A stretch of DNA of 64,000 nucleotides, taken from the IMG/VR virus record IMGVR_UViG_3300033066_000802, positions 64,001-128,000 of that record, one strand, 5' to 3'. Source of the stretch: a virus. Lineage: Duplodnaviria; Caudoviricetes. Position 1 is the first letter of the stretch. Each line of letters starts with the position of its first letter. The notes under the pieces are model-generated. The model had not been told where the DNA came from. It saw nothing but the letters and a program-made list of their open reading frames with translations, and made no database searches. Below are positions 50,266 to 64,000 of this stretch, one piece after another. Position numbers and translations under genes: made by a program.

Positions 50266-53200
50266 TTATATGTTTTCAAACGATACACTTGTCGGTGTAA
50301 TATTGAATTCCAGATCAATAAATTCCAATGCATCAATTGGTTTAAGGTGAATTTTACCTTTCATTGTATTTCTATCAGAATCAGATACTGGATCTAACTT
50401 AATTCTAAAATCACTTAAACCTCTTTCCTTTCTGATATTATCCAATATTGGATTAACTAAAGATAAGAATTGTGACCTTACAGCTGAATCATTAGGATCA
50501 AATAATAATCTATTTGAAACTGATATAATAAGTTTTCTTGCTTGTAATAACAATCTTCTAATATTCAACCTATTAAGCGCACTATCTCTCAATTGTAAGT
50601 TTCTATTACCCCATATTACAGTACCAACATCAGAGAAGGTTGCAATCGGATTAATTCTTGCTGGATATAATAAATCTCTCGATTCCTGATCTAATACAAT
50701 TCTTGTTCTTTTACAGTTAACCAAACCTCTGTTATAACCAGCCGTAGCAAACCAAGGGAATGAAACGTTATCGGTATATGCTAAGTTTCTTACAACTTCA
50801 GCGGTTGGTGGTATCCATAAGTAGGCGTTATTTTCAACATCAGCAATTTGTATCCAAGGGTAGTAAACCGCAGTATAGTTCGAATCCAAATTAAGATTAT
50901 CCATTTGTTCAGATATATCATTTGGAAAATACCAATCATCTGTGTTAGCTGAATTTGTATTGTTATACAAACCTATATCAGGTAATGTTGGTATATAAAT
51001 CGAATCCAATCTTTTTTCTTCAACTATTTCAATTACAGCTTGACATAATTGATTGTTATTAATAACATCAATACCTGGTGTAACTAATATGTTTATATTA
51101 ACTTTTTCAGGATTTTGGAAAGTTTTATAGCCGTATAAGAAAGCGTAATAGTCAGATGAACCAAATGTTTCATCATATTCAGCATTAGCAAATGTAGCAA
51201 AATCACCGTTTACGAAACCTGATTGACCTATTCTATAAAGGTCAGTTGTCGTTCTTGACTCCCTATACATATCCCATGCATCAAAACCACCTGATAATAC
51301 AGCTGTGAACTTTCTTGTTCTGATATCATAATATGGTTCGTCAATATCTGTTGCTAAAACAACAGAATCTGTAAATTGACCAACACCAACTTCGAATAAA
51401 TCAGCATCAGCGTTAACATCCAAGTGGAAACCTTTAGTTTTTTCACCCCATTCATTACCAGTATTATATGTTAAAGTACCTGTAGCATTTACTCTACCTT
51501 GGAACTTAGTTATATCGGTATCAAAACCATAATCAACATCACTGAAACCTAAATATGTTTTTCTTACTTTATCACCAGAGGATACTAAATCAGCACCCAA
51601 TGGATTAGATTGCCATACTTCACCAGGTACAAAATACTTAGTTTTATATGTAATTTCAGGAACACCTAATTCCAAATCAGAATGTGTTTTGAAATTATAA
51701 CCATCAAAACCACATGGTACCGCATCAGATGGTGCATTTTCAGCTATCTCAATTAATATATATGAACTATTTACAGTATATTTATTATCTACAGTACCCA
51801 CCAATCTACCAATAAATCTACTACTTAATTCATTCATTGAACAGTTAGTGTACCTTTCAATAATAACAGGTGTTTTATCCGTATCTTCAAATCTCCTTAC
51901 ATATAAGTCGAATGTCTTTTTAGCTAAATCAACGTTTGCAATTGAAATTTTAATTTCAGTATTAGCGTGATCACCATCAGATATTGATATAACTCTGAAT
52001 AAGTTCTCAGCCACACCACCCCTCAATTCAGAAACAAAGTAAGGTGTTGCTGGTGATTGGAATTGGAATTTAAAATGATCCCATGCTCCAGATTCACCAC
52101 GTGGTATATGTATTAATTCAGGATATAAACCTTTAACATAACCATTTAACCATCCTTTAGCTAAAGCAGAGTTATAAACGTCCTCAACATAAAGATTAGT
52201 TGATTTATCAAAGTTAGTTAAACCTAACACATTTTCAATATAGTTCTTTTTACTCGTATCTAAAGATACGGTATATGTAAATGGTGTTGATGTAATTGTA
52301 GAACCTGTAATTGTGAAATCAGCATATGGGTCACCACCAGTTAAACCTGGAGCTATACCTACAGTTGAACCGCTAACTAAAAATTCTAATTCATCATTAA
52401 CATACAAACCCTTACCTCTTATAGTCGCAACCAATTTATTATGGTATAATGCTACAGGTGAAGCTTCATAATCAACATTATAAAGTATTACCTTACCAGA
52501 TATTGTTGTACCAGTTCCAAGCTCAACTTCATCAGTTGTTAATATGAAAGCTCTTCCGTAATAAGTACCACCTGTATAGGTAAACTCTGTGTTAATATAG
52601 TAATTATCTTGATCTATTGTTGGTAATCCTGATGGATAAACATAAGCATCCCTTGTTAAAGGTGCTGTATTACTATATGTTGATGTATTTTCTGGTGATG
52701 TTGCACCTGATGTAACAAGATCAGTTGTACCTGATGGTATCAAACCCCAATGGAATACATCGTGTTTCCAGAAGTTCTTAGTTGTACCAGTAGCTGTTGT
52801 GTATTTAGTGAAATATGCAGCGTAAGCGTCAGCGAACTTAGTCGTAGCAACGTTTGTTTGTGTTCCAAGCTCTGTTAATAAGTTGGTTGATGTTCCAGAC
52901 ACATAATAAGTTGAGCTATTGGTATTACCAGTAAAGTATACCTCAATAGCTGATGATGTTGTACCTGTTAAAGTATCACGATCAATCGATCCAATTGTTT
53001 TAAGTGCAAAAGCATCACCCTTATCATAACCAGATAAACCAAGAATACGGGTTACGTATAACTGATTTGATTGTGTAAGGTAATTTTTAGCAATATATGA
53101 TAACTCATATTTTACTATTTGTGTATTTCTAAACTTTTCAGGATTAATACCACCAAAAATTGTTGAGAATTGATCATAATTCTTAACAGGAATTGGTTGA

Positions 53201-53325
53201 AACGCAGGACCTTTTACGGTTTCACCCGCTGCACCCAAAGTCGTAACACCCAAAGTTTCGATACTGTATGTTAGATCTTTTTCTGAGGTGTAGACACCTG
53301 GTGACGCATAAACTCTATTAGCCAT
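50266..53325 (-). CDS. Tail sheath protein (T4 gp18-like) with large insertions
   Basis: ASPGVYTSEKD, GETVKGPAF, AVYYPW, PWFATAGYNRG, INPI, IWGNRNL, LNIRRLL, EFIDLEF. Confidence 0.95.
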   Translation of the reverse strand: MANRVYASPGVYTSEKDLTYSIETLGVTTLGAAGETVKGPAFQPIPVKNYDQFSTIFGGINPEKFRNTQIVKYELSYIAKNYLTQSNQLYVTRILGLSGYDKGDAFALKTIGSIDRDTLTGTTSSAIEVYFTGNTNSSTYYVSGTSTNLLTELGTQTNVATTKFADAYAAYFTKYTTATGTTKNFWKHDVFHWGLIPSGTTDLVTSGATSPENTSTYSNTAPLTRDAYVYPSGLPTIDQDNYYINTEFTYTGGTYYGRAFILTTDEVELGTGTTISGKVILYNVDYEASPVALYHNKLVATIRGKGLYVNDELEFLVSGSTVGIAPGLTGGDPYADFTITGSTITSTPFTYTVSLDTSKKNYIENVLGLTNFDKSTNLYVEDVYNSALAKGWLNGYVKGLYPELIHIPRGESGAWDHFKFQFQSPATPYFVSELRGGVAENLFRVISISDGDHANTEIKISIANVDLAKKTFDLYVRRFEDTDKTPVIIERYTNCSMNELSSRFIGRLVGTVDNKYTVNSSYILIEIAENAPSDAVPCGFDGYNFKTHSDLELGVPEITYKTKYFVPGEVWQSNPLGADLVSSGDKVRKTYLGFSDVDYGFDTDITKFQGRVNATGTLTYNTGNEWGEKTKGFHLDVNADADLFEVGVGQFTDSVVLATDIDEPYYDIRTRKFTAVLSGGFDAWDMYRESRTTTDLYRIGQSGFVNGDFATFANAEYDETFGSSDYYAFLYGYKTFQNPEKVNINILVTPGIDVINNNQLCQAVIEIVEEKRLDSIYIPTLPDIGLYNNTNSANTDDWYFPNDISEQMDNLNLDSNYTAVYYPWIQIADVENNAYLWIPPTAEVVRNLAYTDNVSFPWFATAGYNRGLVNCKRTRIVLDQESRDLLYPARINPIATFSDVGTVIWGNRNLQLRDSALNRLNIRRLLLQARKLIISVSNRLLFDPNDSAVRSQFLSLVNPILDNIRKERGLSDFRIKLDPVSDSDRNTMKGKIHLKPIDALEFIDLEFNITPTSVSFENI

Positions 53326-53426
53326 ATTTTGATTTTTTTGTTTTAACTTATTATCTTAAAGATAAATATTAGAAATTTGACCAAAATACTTTACTTTCAT
53401 ATAATAATTTGTACTTTCAGCAAATT

Positions 53427-54194
53427 TTATCCATTTGTAAGGATAATTCGATTTATGGCTGGGACAACTGTAAAGTCATCAGGATCTAAAATAAAACCTT
53501 GTAATATGAAATTATACGTATGAACGTAAAATCTTCTTTGTTGTGAGTCGCTTATTTGGCTTTCATCAGAATCATCTTCCATTAAAATTGGAATATGGTG
53601 ACCATTAACTAATGTATATGCTTGTAAACTTCTAAATTCCTTTATTACTATTTTATTAAATAAATTTAAATCTGTTTGTCTTGTTGTGAATAGACTAACA
53701 TTATAAATAATATCAATAGGTGTTGGCATTGGAATTTTATATAAATCAACACCTTTTCTATTCCCATCCCATGTTGGTACCTCAGAAAAGAAGTAAGATA
53801 GGTTTCCTGGTATGTTGTTTAGTAGATTAACATTTGTACCTGGTCTTGTATTAGGTTGTCTAACAATCGTGAGGAATGGCATCTGGATTGATTTATTTTC
53901 ATCTGTAAATTGCCATGTTTCTGAAAATTCATTCCATTTTTGTAAACTAAGCCAAATATTTGGTAATTTCACATTATCAATTACCGCACTAAGTTTGTCA
54001 TTTACAAATGATTTAAACCCTTTATCCAAATCATAGTGCAATACACCATTCGGTAGATACGTAGATTTATCGATAATTAGATCTTTCATTGCCTCAGCTG
54101 CCGCACTTTTCATATTACCCGATTGAGGGTATTCTGAGTTAGGTGGTAAACCATATGCATTAATATTTTTCTTATATGTTTGTGGTGTAGCCAT
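53427..54194 (-). CDS. Tail terminator / sheath stabiliser (gp15-like)
   Basis: Position between neck gene and sheath; MPFLTIVR...PTPIDIIYNVSL...LQGFI pattern. Confidence 0.65.
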   Translation of the reverse strand: MATPQTYKKNINAYGLPPNSEYPQSGNMKSAAAEAMKDLIIDKSTYLPNGVLHYDLDKGFKSFVNDKLSAVIDNVKLPNIWLSLQKWNEFSETWQFTDENKSIQMPFLTIVRQPNTRPGTNVNLLNNIPGNLSYFFSEVPTWDGNRKGVDLYKIPMPTPIDIIYNVSLFTTRQTDLNLFNKIVIKEFRSLQAYTLVNGHHIPILMEDDSDESQISDSQQRRFYVHTYNFILQGFILDPDDFTVVPAINRIILTNG

Positions 54195-54196
54195 AA

Positions 54197-54718
54197 TTAA
54201 AATCCTTTAAATTGATCACCCTCAACTGTAACACATATTATTTTTTTATAATAAGATTTAAAATTGTTATGTTTTTGTGCCGAGGATGTTATATAATTTG
54301 GGTTTGAAACTGAGAAATATTTAAGTTGTGTTTCAGTTTCAGCATACCCAATAATGTCACCATAATTTATTTCCACACCTTTTTTTTGTAATTCTTTCAA
54401 AAAGACTATAAATTCAAGATTACCAAAATTTTCATATCTTAGTGTACCTTGATTTTTATTATATGTTTCATTTGTTGCTGGGTTAACAGTTAATAAGACA
54501 TTTAATTCTACAGGTGGTAAATAAACAACGTCACTAACCTTGGATTCATTATAAACATCATCATATGTTGTATTTTTACGATCAATCCGATATAAAATAA
54601 CCCTAAAATTAGAATCCTCCTGTATTATATCCTGGGAAATTCCAACATCAAAGTTAAAATCAGCCTCATCATAAAACATTGAAAGTCTGGTATTTGGTAT
54701 TTTATTTTTTCCGTCCAT
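54197..54718 (-). CDS. Neck / head-closure protein (gp14-like)
   Basis: VILYRID...DDVYNES...PPVEL...EINYGDII; position upstream of terminator and sheath. Confidence 0.65.
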   Translation of the reverse strand: MDGKNKIPNTRLSMFYDEADFNFDVGISQDIIQEDSNFRVILYRIDRKNTTYDDVYNESKVSDVVYLPPVELNVLLTVNPATNETYNKNQGTLRYENFGNLEFIVFLKELQKKGVEINYGDIIGYAETETQLKYFSVSNPNYITSSAQKHNNFKSYYKKIICVTVEGDQFKGF

Positions 54719-54748
54719 ATATAATAAATAGTTTGTGTAAGTAATATG

Positions 54749-54779
54749 TTGACTTTATCATTTTTTTTTATTACTATTG
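54749..54779 (+). promoter_or_regulatory. Host-RNAP promoter for the helicase operon
   Basis: TTGACT-N17-TACTATTG, same boxes as the ssb promoter. Confidence 0.65.
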
Positions 54780-54785
54780 TATATT

Positions 54786-55289
54786 ATGGAAGCAGCTCAA
54801 TTTATTGATAGTTTAAGAGAAACAATTGAAATTATGGAACCAATCGAAGGTTTTGACGATTGTATTTCAGAAAAAACCTCTTATAGGTTTGGTGAATATT
54901 GGGTTTTAACATACGATTTTGATAAAATTAGAAAAAAATTAGGAAAGAATTTTACCGAAAACCAAACACTTAATTACATATATAAAAATTTTAATTATAA
55001 AAATAATTGTTTTGTAAAATTCTTTAATAAAATAACACCGAATAAATTATCCAAATTATATGGTAATGATATGTTATATGCTGATGGATTTAAAGATGCT
55101 TTAGTTGGTGTTAGATTTGGTTTTGATGATAATAAAAATATTGCTGTATATGATTACGATTTATGTGTGTCGACTATGATGGAACAGAGTGAAGAAATGG
55201 ACGAAATGGATGCTATTGAATATATGGAGTATAATACAGTAGGTGCTTACGTGGGAGAATATACCCCATGTTTTTTAATGACATTGTAA
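54786..55289 (+). CDS. Phage hypothetical protein with an internally duplicated domain
   Basis: ATG 54786 preferred over the track's TTG at 54777, which lies in the -10/-7 box. Repeats: EGFDDCI...YDFDKI and DGFKDALVG...VYDYDLC...EYMEYNTVGAYVGEYTP. Confidence 0.65.
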   Translation: MEAAQFIDSLRETIEIMEPIEGFDDCISEKTSYRFGEYWVLTYDFDKIRKKLGKNFTENQTLNYIYKNFNYKNNCFVKFFNKITPNKLSKLYGNDMLYADGFKDALVGVRFGFDDNKNIAVYDYDLCVSTMMEQSEEMDEMDAIEYMEYNTVGAYVGEYTPCFLMTL

Positions 55290-58058
55290 ATGGCTAATAA
55301 AATACCAGTTGAAATAAGGGCTAAAGAAATACTATTAAATTATAATGGAACAAACGATTACCTTCTCGAATTAAAGTCGACTTTAATAAACAAAAAGACT
55401 TTACCATTTACTCCAAATCTATGTACCTATATCATTAATAATCACAAAGTTAAGCCAGTAATAATTAATAACAAATTTTTATTACATAAGAGTTTAAGAA
55501 AATATTTACAATTACACTATAAATTACAATTTGAACCAGAATTTATCTACGTCAATAAACTATTGACAAGGAAAAAAGATAATTTACATATTTGGGGATG
55601 TTTTTCAGATGATTGTAAGTATTATTTTTCAATCTTCATTGATAAGAATGCAATGAAGAAGACTAAGAATGTTGAATTACCATCTTTTGATGATTATAAA
55701 AGACCGCCACTACCACACCAATTACCAGCTATAAAAACATTATTAGAAAATGATAAATTTATTCTGGCTGATGATATGGGTTTAGCGAAAACAAGTTCAG
55801 CTATTGTTGCTGCAATTCTTGGAAACTACCAAAGAATTCTTGTTGTATGTCCAGCCACACTTAAACTAAACTGGAAAAAAGAAATATCCATATATGATGA
55901 CCCAAGTAACATATCTGTTATTGAGGGTTCGGATTTTACATTCAAAAAATGGACAATCATAAATTACGATATACTTAAAAACTTCCACTTTTTAAAGGAA
56001 AAGGGTGAGGATGAGGTTAAACCGTCAATAATAGATTTTTATAAATATGACCTTATCATTGCTGATGAGTGTTTTCCATATAAAACTTTAGTGGATACCG
56101 ATAAAGGTAAATTAGAAATTGGTAATATAGTTGAAAACTGTTTAGATGTTAAAATATTATCATATAATTTAAAAAATTCTAAATTAGAATACAAACGAAT
56201 TAATAGATGGATTAAAAAAGAAAGTAACACTATATTAAAAATATCACTTCAAAACGAAAAATTTATAGAGTGTACACCTAATCATAAAATATATGTTAAA
56301 GATAGGGGTTATATTAGAGCAGATAAAATATTAAAAAATGATGAATTATATACATTGCAAAAACCCAGTGACAAAAAATTGTCAATTCTGTGGAAAACAG
56401 ATGATTCTAACAGGGAAACGGAAGAAAAATCGATTCTGCGATACTGTTTGTTCAGCAAAATGGAAAATGAACCAACCAGAGATAAAAAAGAAAATTCACA
56501 ATCCAGAAGTTTACAAAAAAGCAAAAATATCAAATATAGAAAATTACAAGAAAAATCCACAACGTGCAAAAGATTCATCAGATCGTATGAAAAAAAACAA
56601 CCCAATGATGAATATAGAAACGTTGGAGAAAATGAAAAATTCATTGAAAGGGAAAACCTTTTTATCAAGAGGTGGGAACGGAAAAACAACAATACAAGAA
56701 CAAAAAATGAAAAATATTTTGGGTGTTGGCTGGGAACTACATTACGCAATAAAAACATCGATGGTAAAAACAATGTTCAAATCCTTACCGCCAGCATATC
56801 AAGTAGATTTAGGAAACGAAGATTTAAAAATCGCAATAGAGGTGGACGGAAAAACACATCTAACAAAAAAATGGAAATTTCTGGACAAAAGAAAAACGGA
56901 AGTATTAGAAGCGTTAGGGTGGAAAATATTGAGATTTTGGAATCAGGATGTGGACGATCAAATAGAAAATTGTTTGACGAAGATAAACGAGTTTATAACA
57001 TCGAAGTAGCCGATAACCATAATTATTTTGCTGATAATATATTAGTTAGTAATTGTCATTATTTGAAAAACGCTTCAGCTAATCGTACCAAATTATTCAA
57101 CGACTTTGCTTTAAAAATCAATACCAGGTGGCTTTTAACAGGTACACCTATTACAAGTAAACCAATTAATTTATATAATCTTTTATTATTATGTGATTCA
57201 CCTTTGGCTAATAATTGGGTTAGTTATGTTAGAAGGTACTGCGCTGGTAAACAATTCAATAGAAAGGGTACCACCCAAAAATATTGGGTAACTGATGGAG
57301 CAACAAATTTGGAAGAACTAAATGATTATATTAGTGATATATTATTACGTAGGTTAAAAAAAGATTCTGTTGAGTTACCACAAAAAACGGTTAAACCAAT
57401 CTTCTTACCGTTATCCTCATCAAAAAGGTATAATGAATACATGATTGAATACCAGGAATGGTATAATGATATGGTTGAAAATGGTCTTGAGCCAAAACCA
57501 ACGGAACATCTGACCCAACTGATTAAAATCAGACAATTATTATCTGAGGATAAAATGAGTAATACAATTAAGATTGCAGAAGATCTCATTGAAGAAGGTC
57601 ATAAGGTAATCATATTTTCTTGTTTCACCAACACCATACGTGGTATTCATGAGCATTTTGGTAAAGAATCCGTATTGATTGATGGTGCTATAAACTCTAA
57701 AAATAGAGATATTGCTGTGGAAAAGTTCCAGAATGATAAGAAAGTCAAAGTATTTTGTGGTAATCTTATTGCCGCTGGCGCTGGCATTACTTTAACCGAA
57801 GGTACAATTGTAATATTTAATGACCTTGATTGGTTACCAGGAAACCATGCCCAGGCGAGTGATCGAGCCTATAGAATAGGTCAAACAAAAGATGTACATA
57901 TTATATATATGTTGATTGATGACACATTGGATAATATGATGTATACAAGACTTCAAGAGAAAATAAAGGAAATCAATACTGTTATGGGTGATGAACATAC
58001 GGAAGATGTATCACTACTTAATGCTGTGGTTAGTAATTTATTAGTGGAAAGTAAGTAG
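55290..58058 (+). CDS. SNF2-family (SMARCAL1/HARP-like) helicase precursor containing an intein
   Basis: LADDMGLAKT, LVVCPA, IIADE|CH (split by intein), LLTGTP, LRRLK, KVIIFS, GAGITLT, QASDRAYRIGQ. Confidence 0.92.
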   Translation: MANKIPVEIRAKEILLNYNGTNDYLLELKSTLINKKTLPFTPNLCTYIINNHKVKPVIINNKFLLHKSLRKYLQLHYKLQFEPEFIYVNKLLTRKKDNLHIWGCFSDDCKYYFSIFIDKNAMKKTKNVELPSFDDYKRPPLPHQLPAIKTLLENDKFILADDMGLAKTSSAIVAAILGNYQRILVVCPATLKLNWKKEISIYDDPSNISVIEGSDFTFKKWTIINYDILKNFHFLKEKGEDEVKPSIIDFYKYDLIIADECFPYKTLVDTDKGKLEIGNIVENCLDVKILSYNLKNSKLEYKRINRWIKKESNTILKISLQNEKFIECTPNHKIYVKDRGYIRADKILKNDELYTLQKPSDKKLSILWKTDDSNRETEEKSILRYCLFSKMENEPTRDKKENSQSRSLQKSKNIKYRKLQEKSTTCKRFIRSYEKKQPNDEYRNVGENEKFIERENLFIKRWERKNNNTRTKNEKYFGCWLGTTLRNKNIDGKNNVQILTASISSRFRKRRFKNRNRGGRKNTSNKKMEISGQKKNGSIRSVRVENIEILESGCGRSNRKLFDEDKRVYNIEVADNHNYFADNILVSNCHYLKNASANRTKLFNDFALKINTRWLLTGTPITSKPINLYNLLLLCDSPLANNWVSYVRRYCAGKQFNRKGTTQKYWVTDGATNLEELNDYISDILLRRLKKDSVELPQKTVKPIFLPLSSSKRYNEYMIEYQEWYNDMVENGLEPKPTEHLTQLIKIRQLLSEDKMSNTIKIAEDLIEEGHKVIIFSCFTNTIRGIHEHFGKESVLIDGAINSKNRDIAVEKFQNDKKVKVFCGNLIAAGAGITLTEGTIVIFNDLDWLPGNHAQASDRAYRIGQTKDVHIIYMLIDDTLDNMMYTRLQEKIKEINTVMGDEHTEDVSLLNAVVSNLLVESK
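56070..57053 (+). mobile_element. Intein (328 aa) inserted in helicase motif II between DE and CH
   Basis: Block A CFPYKTLV, block B ECTPNHKIY, block F VYNIEVADNHNYF, block G ILVSN followed by +1 Cys; removal restores DECHYLKN. Confidence 0.93.
56338..57009 (+). CDS. Vsr/DUF559-type homing endonuclease nested out of frame (+1) inside the intein
   Basis: 223 aa: CQFCGK...RFCDTVC Zn motif, RMKKNNPM NUMOD-like segment, TIQEQK...YQVDLG...IAIEVDGKTH...DKRK...LGWKILRFWN. Confidence 0.88.
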   Translation: MMNYIHCKNPVTKNCQFCGKQMILTGKRKKNRFCDTVCSAKWKMNQPEIKKKIHNPEVYKKAKISNIENYKKNPQRAKDSSDRMKKNNPMMNIETLEKMKNSLKGKTFLSRGGNGKTTIQEQKMKNILGVGWELHYAIKTSMVKTMFKSLPPAYQVDLGNEDLKIAIEVDGKTHLTKKWKFLDKRKTEVLEALGWKILRFWNQDVDDQIENCLTKINEFITSK

Positions 58059-62309: not shown

Positions 62310-64000
62310 ATGACAGAATTTAGTGTACCTATTGAAACTATTGAACGATTTTTATCGGGACATGGTGAGGAAAAATATATTGTAAATGTTGAGTATGATA
62401 TGAATACTAATTTAATCTATAAGATTAAAGATGTACCAGGTCAAGGTATAACAATAGAAACCGAACCATTAAAAGCCTTTATGTGGATTAAAAACCTTAA
62501 TGAGGTTAAAAAAATATGTCGTTTTTATGGTAATAATGATCTTTTGATTAAGAAAAAAATGACCGAATATGGTATTGAGATTAAAACATTACGTCATGAT
62601 AATCACCCAAGATTAGTACAGGGTTTTAATTACTTAGTTAAGTGTAACCAAGGTTATAAAAGAATGGTTGCATTCTTTTCCGATGGTGGTATCAATATTT
62701 ATAATAAATACGAAAAAAGAATTAACATCCCGTCATATTTTAATATCTTACCACCAGTTGAACAATACTTTATTGGTACAGGTAATAGATTATACAAAGG
62801 ATTCGAATCTTATGATGAAATTAACAAGTTTATATTTGACTTGGAAACCACAGGATTAGATCCAAATATAAATAAAATATTCCTTATTGGTATTAAAACA
62901 AATAAAGGTTACGAGAAATTGATTGAATGTAATCTTGAAGATGAAGAATCTGAAAGACAAGGTATTATACAATTTTTTGATGAAATTAGTCAAGTTAAAC
63001 CAGCAATCATAGCTGGATACAATAGTGCAAATTTTGACTGGTATTTTATCTTTAAAAGGTGTCAGGTACTTGGTTTAGATATTGAAACTATCGCAAAGAC
63101 GCTTAAACCAGATCAAAAAATATGGGTTCGAGAATCTATGCTTAAACTCGGAAATGAGGTTGAAACATATATCCAAACTAATATGTTCGGATATAGTATT
63201 ATTGATATTAATCACTCAACTCGTAGAGCGCAAGCTATTGATTCGGATATGAAGTATACGAAATTAAAATATGTGTGCAAATATAATGACGTAGCGAAAC
63301 CTAATCGTGTATATATTGATGGTGAGAATATAGGTAAATATTGGGAAAGTAATAATAAATTTTATTTTGATAATAAAAGTGGGTCTTATACTAAGACAAT
63401 GCCACGTATTGAATATATGGATTTTATTACTCGTAAAATCGTGCAAGAAAACCCAGATAAAATATTCGTATTTGGTGATAATGACTTACGTGAAGGGTAT
63501 GGTGGGCAAGCTAAAGAAATGCGTGGTGAAAAAAACACAATTGGTATCGTAACTAAGAAAGAGCCATTTTCAAATGAAGATTCTTATTACACAGATGATG
63601 AATTTGAATTAAATAAAAAGAAAATTAATATTGATATTAAAAATATCATTAATGAAATTAAAAAAGGTAAAACCATCGTATTTCCAACTAACGGAATAGG
63701 TACTGGTTTAGCTAAATTAAAAGAAAAGGCACCAAAAACATATAAATTTCTTCAGGGTTCCATTAACGCATTAAAAATGTACGCTGAAAGTTATATTGAG
63801 TGCAATGGGAAATATATTGTTGAGCGCTATCTTATGGATGACCTTTGGGAAACATTAGAAGTTGATAATATATATAACCAATCTTCATTTATGTTGGCTA
63901 AGTTGATTCCAACAACATATCAACGTGTATCTACAATGGGTACCGCTGGTTTATGGAAAATGTTGATGCTAACCTGGTCATACGAAAATGATCTCGCAAT
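62310..64000 (+). CDS. Family B DNA polymerase, 5' part (N-terminal and 3'-5' exonuclease domains), runs off the window
   Basis: Not in ORF track. Hand translation from ATG 62310 is open to the end: ExoI FDLETTG (62835), ExoII GYNSANFDW (~63015), ExoIII RYLMDD (63825-63842). Confidence 0.9.
   Translation, partial: MTEFSVPIETIERFLSGHGEEKYIVNVEYDMNTNLIYKIKDVPGQGITIETEPLKAFMWIKNLNEVKKICRFYGNNDLLIKKKMTEYGIEIKTLRHDNHPRLVQGFNYLVKCNQGYKRMVAFFSDGGINIYNKYEKRINIPSYFNILPPVEQYFIGTGNRLYKGFESYDEINKFIFDLETTGLDPNINKIFLIGIKTNKGYEKLIECNLEDEESERQGIIQFFDEISQVKPAIIAGYNSANFDWYFIFKRCQVLGLDIETIAKTLKPDQKIWVRESMLKLGNEVETYIQTNMFGYSIIDINHSTRRAQAIDSDMKYTKLKYVCKYNDVAKPNRVYIDGENIGKYWESNNKFYFDNKSGSYTKTMPRIEYMDFITRKIVQENPDKIFVFGDNDLREGYGGQAKEMRGEKNTIGIVTKKEPFSNEDSYYTDDEFELNKKKINIDIKNIINEIKKGKTIVFPTNGIGTGLAKLKEKAPKTYKFLQGSINALKMYAESYIECNGKYIVERYLMDDLWETLEVDNIYNQSSFMLAKLIPTTYQRVSTMGTAGLWKMLMLTWSYENDLA
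63399..63776 (+). other. Macrodomain-like domain (DUF7831/A1S_2505-like) inserted in frame in the polymerase exonuclease domain
   Basis: MPRIEYMDFITRKIVQENPDKIFVFGDNDLREGYGGQAKEMRGEKNTIGIVTKK...TIVFPTNGIGTGLAKLKEKAPKTY. Confidence 0.7.

What the first reader, a model, noticed from the sequence alone, without database searches (positions are those of the whole stretch)
63399..63776. DNA polymerase B carries a macrodomain-like module inside its proofreading domain: candidate built-in eraser or reader of DNA ADP-ribosylation
Seen: between ExoII (GYNSANFD) and ExoIII (YLMDD) lies a ~126-aa block that begins with its own Met (MPRIEY...). It contains FVFGDN-x4-GYGGQA and VFPTNGIGTGLA and lacks intein termini. 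Known: N-x-Gly-rich loop 1 and P-x-x-G-I-G-x-G-L-A loop 2 resemble the two ADP-ribose diphosphate-binding loops of macrodomains, and this sequence type normally occurs as a stand-alone small phage gene. DarT toxins of DarTG defence ADP-ribosylate ssDNA to stall phage replication; macro/NADAR enzymes reverse this, and polymerase mutations can give escape. Inference: the phage captured a whole macro-like gene into its replicase, tethering an ADPr hydrolase or sensor at the fork. I do not know of a described polymerase with this architecture.
Basis: partly seen in the sequence, partly recalled or inferred. Interest (0 to 1): 0.85.

Follow-up and report, generated by a model that had tools for sequence, protein, structure and literature searches.

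The report
Macro-like domain inside phage DNA polymerase
A large uncultured phage carries, inside the proofreading part of its DNA polymerase, a complete small domain (Pfam DUF7831) whose predicted shape is closest to the enzymes that strip ADP-ribose from DNA, so the replicase may carry its own tool against a bacterial defence that marks phage DNA; this activity has not been tested.

Summary
Residues 364-489 of a 1037-aa family-B DNA polymerase (window 63399-63776) are a complete DUF7831 domain (PF25176, E 2.7e-47). It lies between ExoII (D243) and ExoIII (D511). All exonuclease and polymerase motifs are intact.

About 900-aa relatives lack it cleanly, with 38-40 residues in place of about 156. 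The family is mostly free-standing genes of 120-140 aa.

Elsewhere DUF7831 is fused to NADAR, SLOG, DUF4326 and DUF488 domains, SF1 and SNF2 helicases and an AlkB-like oxygenase. It also sits in giant multi-domain proteins.

Among 81 insert-bearing polymerase clusters, 61 keep every invariant residue. The insert evolves as slowly as the rest of the exonuclease domain. At least six lineages have eroded the glycine loops and one has lost the domain.

Best reading, at about 0.4: a TARG1/DarG-like ADP-ribose hydrolase or reader fixed to the replicase as counter-defence. No ADP-ribose binding or DarT link was tested. Other first-stage notes of this scan flagged the same architecture in two other genomes.

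The parts
62310..64000 (+). Family-B DNA polymerase gene, first 563 codons. The ORF continues beyond the window to 1037 aa (L001:1311-4424).
   Evidence: Pfam DNA_pol_B, DNA_pol_B_exo1 and RNase_H_2 match. Full-length AF2 model pLDDT 89.5, best PDB matches archaeal PolBs 9N/KOD/Tgo at E 4e-30.
62835..62858 (+). ExoI motif FDLETTGL (D177, E179).
   Evidence: D177, E179, T180 and L183 are invariant, and F176 nearly so, in the 66-sequence alignment.
63015..63038 (+). ExoII motif GYNSANFD (N238, F242, D243).
   Evidence: F242 and D243 are invariant, Y237 and N238 nearly so.
63399..63776 (+). Inserted DUF7831 domain, PolB residues 364-489, with a macro-like predicted fold.
63471..63512 (+). Glycine-rich loop 1, FGDN-x4-G-x-GGQA (insert residues 25-38). 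It includes the invariant D27 and N28.
   Evidence: Invariant in 80 family members and in 64 intact or half-intact polymerase copies. hhalign places N28 on N23 of PhiKZ AdfM, and GGQA on GAGLA.
63552..63557 (+). T52-K53 at the C-terminal end of strand 3. K53 is the candidate equivalent of the catalytic Lys of DarG (K80) and AdfM (K78).
   Evidence: K53 is invariant in 64 intact or half-intact polymerase copies and conserved in at least 90% of the family. It ends strand 47-53 in the model. The equivalence is by eye and by position in the fold; hhalign did not align it so.
63684..63713 (+). Glycine-rich loop 2, P-x-x-G-I-G-T-G-L-A (insert residues 96-105).
   Evidence: G101 and G103 are invariant; P96, G99, T102, L104 and A105 are at least 90% conserved. 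hhalign places it on the P-x-L-G-C-x-x-G-G-L loop of AdfM/DarG-like macrodomains.
63828..63842 (+). ExoIII motif YLMDD (Y507, D511).
   Evidence: Y507, L508, D510 and D511 are invariant. It aligns with YSMED of Pyrococcus PolB.

Best explanation
An ancestor of this clade of large uncultured phages acquired a complete DUF7831 domain in a surface loop of the 3'-5' exonuclease domain of its replicative family-B polymerase, just before the helix that carries ExoIII.

The domain is a trimmed macrodomain-like fold: a five-stranded sheet between helices. Two glycine-rich loops and an invariant Asn and Lys lie where the closest structural relatives, TARG1 and DarG, hold ADP-ribose.

The most likely function is to bind ADP-ribose and hydrolyse it from DNA bases next to the replicating polymerase. 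Such adducts are made on single-stranded DNA by DarT-type defence toxins. The replicase would then clear its own template, or at least recognise the adduct.

Shown here: the identity of the domain, the clean insertion, its conservation, the fold likeness and the domain associations.

Inferred: the ligand, the catalysis, DNA as the substrate, and action in cis.
For: Identity and insertion:
- PF25176 at E 2.7e-47.
- Relatives of about 900 aa have 38-40 residues where this protein has about 156.
- Linkers are 5 residues or fewer in the full-length model.

Fold:
- The AF2 model has pLDDT 95.8.

Sequence:
- hhalign against 13 phage DarG-like macrodomains, including PhiKZ AdfM, is colinear. It puts N28 on AdfM N23 and both glycine loops on their counterparts.
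- AdfM itself matches DarG at E 9e-25 and removes DarT2 ADP-ribose from DNA (PMC13309987).

Associations:
- DUF7831 is fused to NADAR, YAcAr/cpYpsA SLOG, DUF4326, DUF488, Pif1/RecD-like and SNF2 helicases and an AlkB-like oxygenase, and it sits in proteins of 3-6.8 kaa.
- The same phage record encodes a NADAR gene, with a NUDIX gene two genes away.
- Phage NADAR proteins counter DarTG1 (PMC11825919).
- Polymerase mutations let a phage escape DarTG2 (cited in PMC11825919).

Selection:
- Pairwise identity in the insert is 57.7%, against 59.8% in the flanking exonuclease domain.
- N28, K53, D27, Q37, R42, N46, G101 and G103 are invariant in 64 copies.
Against: - No biochemical evidence exists for any DUF7831 protein; no paper mentions the family.
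- No Pfam macro family, PADLOC model or PDB sequence matches it.
- hhalign probability is only 4-6%, and it did not align the TK Lys with the DarG Lys.
- The domain lacks two edge strands of a canonical macrodomain.
- 17 to 20 of 81 insert-bearing polymerases have eroded glycine loops yet keep the domain, so the domain can persist without the presumed activity.
- Insert-less relatives carry no free DUF7831, Macro or NADAR gene, so the function is not general in this phage group.
- The host is unknown, as is whether it has DarT.
Confidence: 0.4

Rival explanations
1. The domain handles soluble NAD- or ADP-ribose-derived molecules rather than DNA adducts. These could be ADP-ribose 1''-phosphate, cyclic ADP-ribose signals or O-acetyl-ADP-ribose. 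It would either degrade defence signals or sense NAD depletion and tune replication.
For: - The domain is repeatedly fused to SLOG and DUF4326 domains.
- NUDIX and NADAR genes lie in the same phage record.
Against: - A soluble-ligand enzyme gains nothing obvious from a rigid insertion into a replicase.
- The family is also fused to ssDNA enzymes: Pif1/RecD-like and SNF2 helicases and an AlkB-like oxygenase.
- The closest structures are TARG1 and DarG, which act on macromolecular adducts.
Confidence: 0.2
2. In the polymerase the domain is mainly structural. It would be a docking surface for another replisome protein, or a stabilising lobe of the exonuclease domain, with the ancestral enzymatic activity incidental.
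For: - In at least six separate lineages the glycine-rich loops are eroded, or the whole sequence has diverged beyond Pfam recognition, while a domain-sized block stays in place.
- Short linkers and a high pTM (0.80) suggest that it packs as part of the enzyme.
Against: - 61 of 81 copies keep every residue that is invariant in the free-standing family, including glycines and polar residues with no obvious structural need.
- P0083 and P0085 lost the domain cleanly, and the large 900-aa clade works without it.
Confidence: 0.15
3. It is a different nucleotide-directed hydrolase on a Rossmann-like scaffold. It could be a LOG/SLOG-type nucleotide N-glycosidase or a phosphoesterase that cleans DNA ends or the dNTP pool.
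For: - The P-x-x-G-x-G-T motif recalls the PGGxGTxxE motif of LOG proteins (from my own knowledge).
- Foldseek's weak top hits are PTP/DUSP phosphatases and CbiL.
- One free-standing copy lies between ThyX, a GIY-YIG gene and dCMP deaminase.
- A SLOG protein with DUF4326-fused relatives is an anti-Avs factor (bioRxiv 10.1101/2025.06.06.658234).
Against: - There is no conserved Cys or C-x5-R motif.
Confidence: 0.12
4. The block is an intein or a remnant of a mobile element with no function in the mature enzyme.
For: It is an in-frame, domain-sized block in a polymerase, a common home for inteins. One relative (P0054) does carry a true intein elsewhere in the protein.
Against: - No intein or homing-endonuclease family matches.
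- The junction residues are not intein-like.
- The block is a member of a family of free-standing proteins.
- It is conserved like the host protein.
Confidence: 0.01

Closest known systems
DarG2 macrodomain, human TARG1, and phage AdfM (PhiKZ gp104)
   Different: There is no significant sequence or profile match. The domain has about 120 residues instead of 150-160 and lacks the hairpin strand and the last strand. TARG1's Asp125 position reads Ala (by eye, from memory of TARG1). The known proteins are free-standing or antitoxin-fused, never inside a polymerase. Activity was not tested.
NADAR erasers of guanine ADP-ribosylation (DarG1, phage AdfN)
   Same: They have the same presumed role, reversal of DarT modification by a phage enzyme (PMC11825919). 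NADAR is repeatedly fused to DUF7831, and a NADAR gene lies in this phage record.
   Different: The fold is unrelated, and NADAR proteins act in trans as free proteins.
Uracil/hypoxanthine read-ahead pocket of archaeal family-B polymerases
   Same: This is a family-B polymerase with a built-in detector of a modified template base. The full-length model is closest to these archaeal enzymes (9N, KOD, Tgo; E 4e-30).
   Different: The archaeal pocket is part of the N-terminal domain. It only binds and stalls, and it recognises deaminated bases. Here a foreign domain sits in the exonuclease domain and is presumed to be catalytic.
Escape from DarTG2 by DNA polymerase mutations (phage SECphi18)
   Same: It shows that the replicase is the point at which DNA ADP-ribosylation acts and at which phages adapt (cited in PMC11825919 and PMC11481870).
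   Different: These are point mutations thought to allow read-through, not an added domain.
Accessory hydrolase domains of other polymerases (PHP domains of PolC/PolX, inteins in PolB)
   Same: They are extra domains carried within polymerase polypeptides.
   Different: PHP domains are phosphoesterases of a different fold. Inteins splice out. Neither is linked to ADP-ribose.

Membership tests
Pfam DUF7831 (PF25176) | Match to the family profile above its curated cut-off of 27 bits. | tested here: met
   159.9 bits, E 2.7e-47, profile positions 2-116 of 118. All 11 invariant family residues are present.
Family-B DNA polymerase with proofreading | ExoI (DxE), ExoII (Nx2-3FD) and ExoIII (Yx3D) motifs, plus polymerase motifs A (DxxSLYPS), B (KxxxNSxYG-like) and C (DTDG). 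| tested here: met
   D177/E179, F242/D243, Y507/D511, D593-S596-L597-Y598-P599, K658/N662/G666 and D711-T712-D713-G714 are invariant in 66 sequences. Pfam PF00136 and PF03104 match. The fold matches archaeal PolBs at E 4e-30.
Macrodomain superfamily | Three-layer alpha/beta/alpha macro fold. | tested here: met
Macrodomain superfamily | Sequence or profile membership (Pfam Macro, Macro_2 and related models). | tested here: not met
   No macro family matches at E up to 10 for any of 80 members. There are no PDB macrodomain hits with the family profile. hhalign against 13 DarG-like phage macrodomains gives probability 4-6% and pairwise E 0.002-0.01.
Macrodomain superfamily | Two glycine-rich loops after core strands that clasp the diphosphate and distal ribose of ADP-ribose. 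| tested here: inconclusive
   Invariant glycine-rich loops follow strand 21-28 and strand 92-96 of the model. hhalign places both on the corresponding AdfM loops, but at low confidence. No residue-level structural superposition was available.
TARG1/DarG class of macrodomains (DNA/protein ADP-ribosyl hydrolases) | Catalytic Lys at the end of a core strand (DarG K80, AdfM K78, TARG1 K84) and an Asn in loop 1 (DarG N22, AdfM N23). | tested here: inconclusive
   N28 aligns with AdfM N23 in all hhalign runs. K53 is invariant and ends strand 47-53, but hhalign aligned a different segment with the DarG TK motif.
TARG1/DarG class of macrodomains | Binding of ADP-ribose and hydrolysis of ADP-ribosyl-thymidine in ssDNA. 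| not testable with these tools
   This needs biochemistry.
Intein | Nucleophile at the first residue, a C-terminal His-Asn followed by Cys/Ser/Thr, and Hint-domain motifs. | tested here: not met
   The block begins with Met (Lys in 71 of 81 homologues) and ends ...NALK|MY. No intein Pfam family matches.

The most novel reading that the evidence does not exclude
DUF7831 is an unrecognised, trimmed branch of the TARG1/DarG macrodomains that removes ADP-ribose from DNA. In this phage clade it has been built rigidly into the replicative polymerase. That would make a replicase that erases a defence-made template lesion as it replicates, a catalytic counterpart of the archaeal uracil read-ahead pocket. 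The same domain in helicases, AlkB-like proteins, giant multi-domain proteins and giant viruses would then mark a widespread DNA de-ADP-ribosylation toolkit.
Probability: 0.3. Interest if true: 0.85.

Novelty: new variant of a known kind. Interest (0 to 1): 0.68.

Why it matters
DNA ADP-ribosylation by DarT toxins stops phage replication. The known phage answers are free inhibitors (AdfA, AdfB), free erasers (AdfN of the NADAR family, AdfM of the macrodomain family) and polymerase point mutations.

An eraser or reader built into the polymerase would be a new way to couple lesion reversal to replication. It would give a first function to a family of about 2,800 protein clusters found in phages, giant viruses and some cellular genomes. 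It would also offer a natural enzyme that copies ADP-ribosylated templates.

The repeated erosion of the putative active site within one polymerase clade gives ready-made natural controls for experiments.

Tried and rejected
- Foldseek of the domain model against PDB gave nothing significant. The best hit was E 0.13, and the top hits were PTP/DUSP phosphatases and CbiL at TM 0.3-0.4.
- HMMER with the family profile against PDB sequences gave only a spurious triosephosphate isomerase match at E 0.28.
- No Pfam macro family matched any of the 80 members, and no PADLOC model matched the query itself. Seven PADLOC models matched one or two other members each at marginal E-values, among them one ThsA macro-domain model at E 0.037 in a single member.
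- NCBIfam gave only a sub-threshold A1S_2505 hint at E 0.14. The protein-atlas feature search also put the A1S_2505 family nearest, at 0.87, which is a lead only.
- hhalign of the family against PhiKZ AdfM alone gave probability 0.8%. Against 13 phage DarG-like macrodomains it gave 4-6%. The alignment is colinear but not significant.
- LOG, DprA and other SLOG structures did not appear among the 50 best rows of either VIA-align list. This is no proof that the folds are unrelated.
- Rosetta-stone test: ten insert-less relatives' records, up to 317 kb with one 100% complete, hold no free DUF7831, Macro or NADAR gene. There is no complementary distribution.
- Neighbourhoods of free-standing copies are heterogeneous: early small genes with Dam, a ThyX/dCMP-deaminase cluster, and sugar-modification genes. 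They give no consistent clue.
- The anti-Avs ORF83 protein with DUF4326-fused relatives turned out to be a LOG/DprA-like SLOG protein, not DUF7831.
- A scan of prokaryote genomes with the family alignment failed for lack of a conserved stretch. Host and habitat therefore remain unknown.
- Intein reading: rejected.

Full report
**What is there.** The window is bases 64001-128000 of a 154.6-kb IMG/VR phage record with about 30% G+C. CheckV estimates the record as 52% complete, so the phage is probably about 300 kb. The ORF starting at window 62310 runs off the window. In the full record it encodes a 1037-aa protein. Pfam finds the family-B polymerase and exonuclease families and, at residues 368-482, DUF7831 (PF25176) with E 1.2e-45. 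The excised block alone (residues 364-489, window 63399-63776) gives E 2.7e-47 over 115 of 118 profile positions. PHROGs places it in phrog_2072, of unknown function.

ExoI (D177/E179), ExoII (D243), ExoIII (Y507/D511) and polymerase motifs A, B and C are invariant across 66 homologues. The enzyme therefore looks fully active. The full-length AlphaFold model (pLDDT 89.5, pTM 0.80) is closest to archaeal family-B polymerases such as 9N, KOD and Tgo (E 4e-30).

**A true, clean insertion.** A search of 5.8 billion proteins found about 80 polymerase clusters at 48-80% identity that carry the same block at the same place. A large set of 900-940-aa relatives lack it. In the alignment these relatives have 38-40 residues where the query has about 156. 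In the full-length model the domain keeps the secondary structure it has on its own. It is joined by linkers of five residues or fewer. On the N-terminal side a small hairpin at 350-361 leads into strand 366-370. On the C-terminal side the last helix (475-493) runs straight into strand 496-499 and the ExoIII helix. The domain is thus a fixed lobe of the exonuclease domain, not a tethered one. No intein family matches, and the junctions are not intein-like.

**The family.** DUF7831 is mostly a free-standing protein of 120-140 aa. A word-indexed search found 172 such proteins. An exhaustive profile search of 1.84 billion representatives found 2,765 clusters. Members occur in Caulobacter, Rhizobium, Sinorhizobium, Ruegeria and Microcystis phages and in giant viruses and crAss-like phages. 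No paper in the library mentions the family.

**Sequence link to macrodomains.** HMMER-level searches see none. To test it properly I fetched PhiKZ gp104 from its GenBank record. This is AdfM, shown experimentally to remove DarT2-made ADP-ribose from DNA, with active-site N23 and K78 corresponding to DarG N22 and K80 (PMC13309987). I confirmed its homology to DarG at E 9e-25. I then collected 12 further phage homologues. hhalign of the DUF7831 alignment against this set gives only 4-6% probability (pairwise E 0.002-0.01). The alignment is nevertheless colinear over the whole domain. FGDN aligns with T-V-N, so N28 falls on AdfM N23. GGQA aligns with GAGLA. P-x-x-GIGTGLA aligns with P-P-L-G-C-x-x-G-G-L.

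hhalign did not pair the invariant T52-K53 with the DarG/AdfM P-T-K motif. It aligned the FFTD segment there instead. In the model, however, FFTD is not in a strand, while K53 ends strand 47-53, as the catalytic Lys does in DarG. I regard the Lys equivalence as plausible but unproven.

**Company it keeps.** Elsewhere DUF7831 is fused to the following:
- NADAR, in both orders, and also within a 3,535-aa protein that carries a cpYpsA SLOG domain as well.
- YAcAr SLOG domains.
- DUF4326 and DUF488-N3a. Iyer, Burroughs and Aravind assign DUF4326 to the rhodanese-phosphatase superfamily and predict that it processes ADP-ribose phosphates. [quoted passage not shown]
- Pif1/RecD-like SF1 helicases and SNF2 helicases.
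- An AlkB-like dioxygenase.

The family also sits in many proteins of 3,000-6,800 aa. This places it both in the NAD/ADP-ribose network and next to enzymes that work on single-stranded DNA. The phage itself encodes a NADAR protein (E 7e-51), with a NUDIX gene two genes away. Phage NADAR proteins are proven anti-DarTG1 factors (PMC11825919).

**Evolution within the polymerase.** I built a tree of 120 polymerases from columns outside the insert. It has 61 copies with both loops intact, 3 with one loop altered, 17 with eroded or unrecognisable motifs, and 39 without the domain.
- The eroded forms fall in at least six separate lineages. Examples of changed motifs are YSDN...GEQS...GTDSS and YDEN...GQQS...PGNGES.
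- P0083 and P0085 have lost the domain although they are nested beside intact forms.
- The large insert-less clade is sister to an intact form. With the likely root on that clade the history is one gain, at least one loss, and repeated erosion.
- Among 59 full-length intact copies, the insert is as conserved as the rest: 57.7% mean pairwise identity, against 59.8% for the preceding exonuclease segment and 54% for the N-terminal domain.
- N28, K53, D27, Q37, R42, N46, G101 and G103 never vary in the 64 intact or half-intact copies.

This is the pattern of a selected but conditionally dispensable activity, as expected of a counter-defence function. Insert-less relatives have no free copy of the domain and no Macro or NADAR gene in records up to 317 kb.

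**Interpretation.** The best-supported reading is a TARG1/DarG-like ADP-ribose-binding and probably hydrolysing module fixed to the replicase. I infer that it clears or recognises ADP-ribosylated bases on single-stranded template DNA. My confidence is about 0.8 that the fold is macro-like, about 0.55 that the ligand is an ADP-ribose derivative, and about 0.3-0.4 that the substrate is ADP-ribosyl-DNA acted on in cis.

The rivals are a role with soluble ADP-ribose derivatives, a chiefly structural role, or another nucleotide hydrolase. Each is weighed in its own section of this report. Nothing here tests binding, catalysis or any effect on DarT. The host and its defences are unknown.

**Novelty.** Free phage macrodomain and NADAR erasers and polymerase escape mutations are known. 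I found no description of a polymerase with an embedded macro-like domain, nor of any function for DUF7831. First-stage notes of this scan flagged the same architecture in two other genomes. These notes are unchecked and do not count as evidence.

**Surroundings.** Upstream lie genes of unknown or structural type. One has a weak match to a head-tail adaptor family. Downstream lie several unknown small genes, a glycosyltransferase, an HD phosphohydrolase and a dUTPase/dCTP-deaminase-like gene.

Noticed in passing
Outside the window: G000:C1:2517-4395 (L003:93-1971, minus strand): A stand-alone NADAR gene (162 aa, Pfam E 7e-51) lies two genes from a NUDIX gene and a YqeY-like gene. This is a small ADP-ribose-processing cluster in the same phage record.
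   Followed up: partly
Junction of the insert; the window equivalent is about 63720-63745: Insert-less polymerase relatives read D-L-D-K-K-F-P-D-T-Y at the junction. This resembles the insert's own K-L-K-E-K-A-P-K-T-Y. It may be the remnant of a deletion or a chance likeness in a charged stretch.
   Followed up: no
Homologues P0036, P0039, P0040, P0044, P0047, P0048, P0050, P0052, P0053, P0064 (insert region): Two sub-clades keep a well-conserved DUF7831 block but have replaced the glycines of both loops, while N28, K53 and the A-P-K-T segment stay. They look like natural 'dead' variants and would serve as controls.
   Followed up: partly
Homologue P0054 (1392 aa): This polymerase carries an intein (PF14528, PF14890) in addition to a degenerate insert at the DUF7831 site.
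   Followed up: no
Homologues P0083 and P0085 (alignment A1 columns 1101-1200) and P0082 (columns 160-200): Other lineage-specific insertions occur in the same polymerase family. P0083 and P0085 have a block of about 100 residues rich in Lys and Glu near the C-terminus. P0082 has a block in the N-terminal domain.
   Followed up: no
Proteins P0318, P0321, P0363, P0375, P0378, P0401 and others: DUF7831 occurs inside giant proteins of 3,000-6,800 aa. P0318 combines NADAR, DUF7831 and a cpYpsA SLOG domain. These look like the polyvalent conflict proteins of phages and conjugative elements.
   Followed up: partly
L001:7647-10273 (downstream of the polymerase, outside the window): A glycosyltransferase, an HD-type phosphohydrolase and a dUTPase/dCTP-deaminase-like gene follow the polymerase after several unknown small genes. 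This hints at a nucleotide or DNA-modification module.
   Followed up: no
Window about 52000-56000: GC skew changes sign here, and the cumulative skew reaches its minimum. This may mark a switch of coding strand between gene modules.
   Followed up: no
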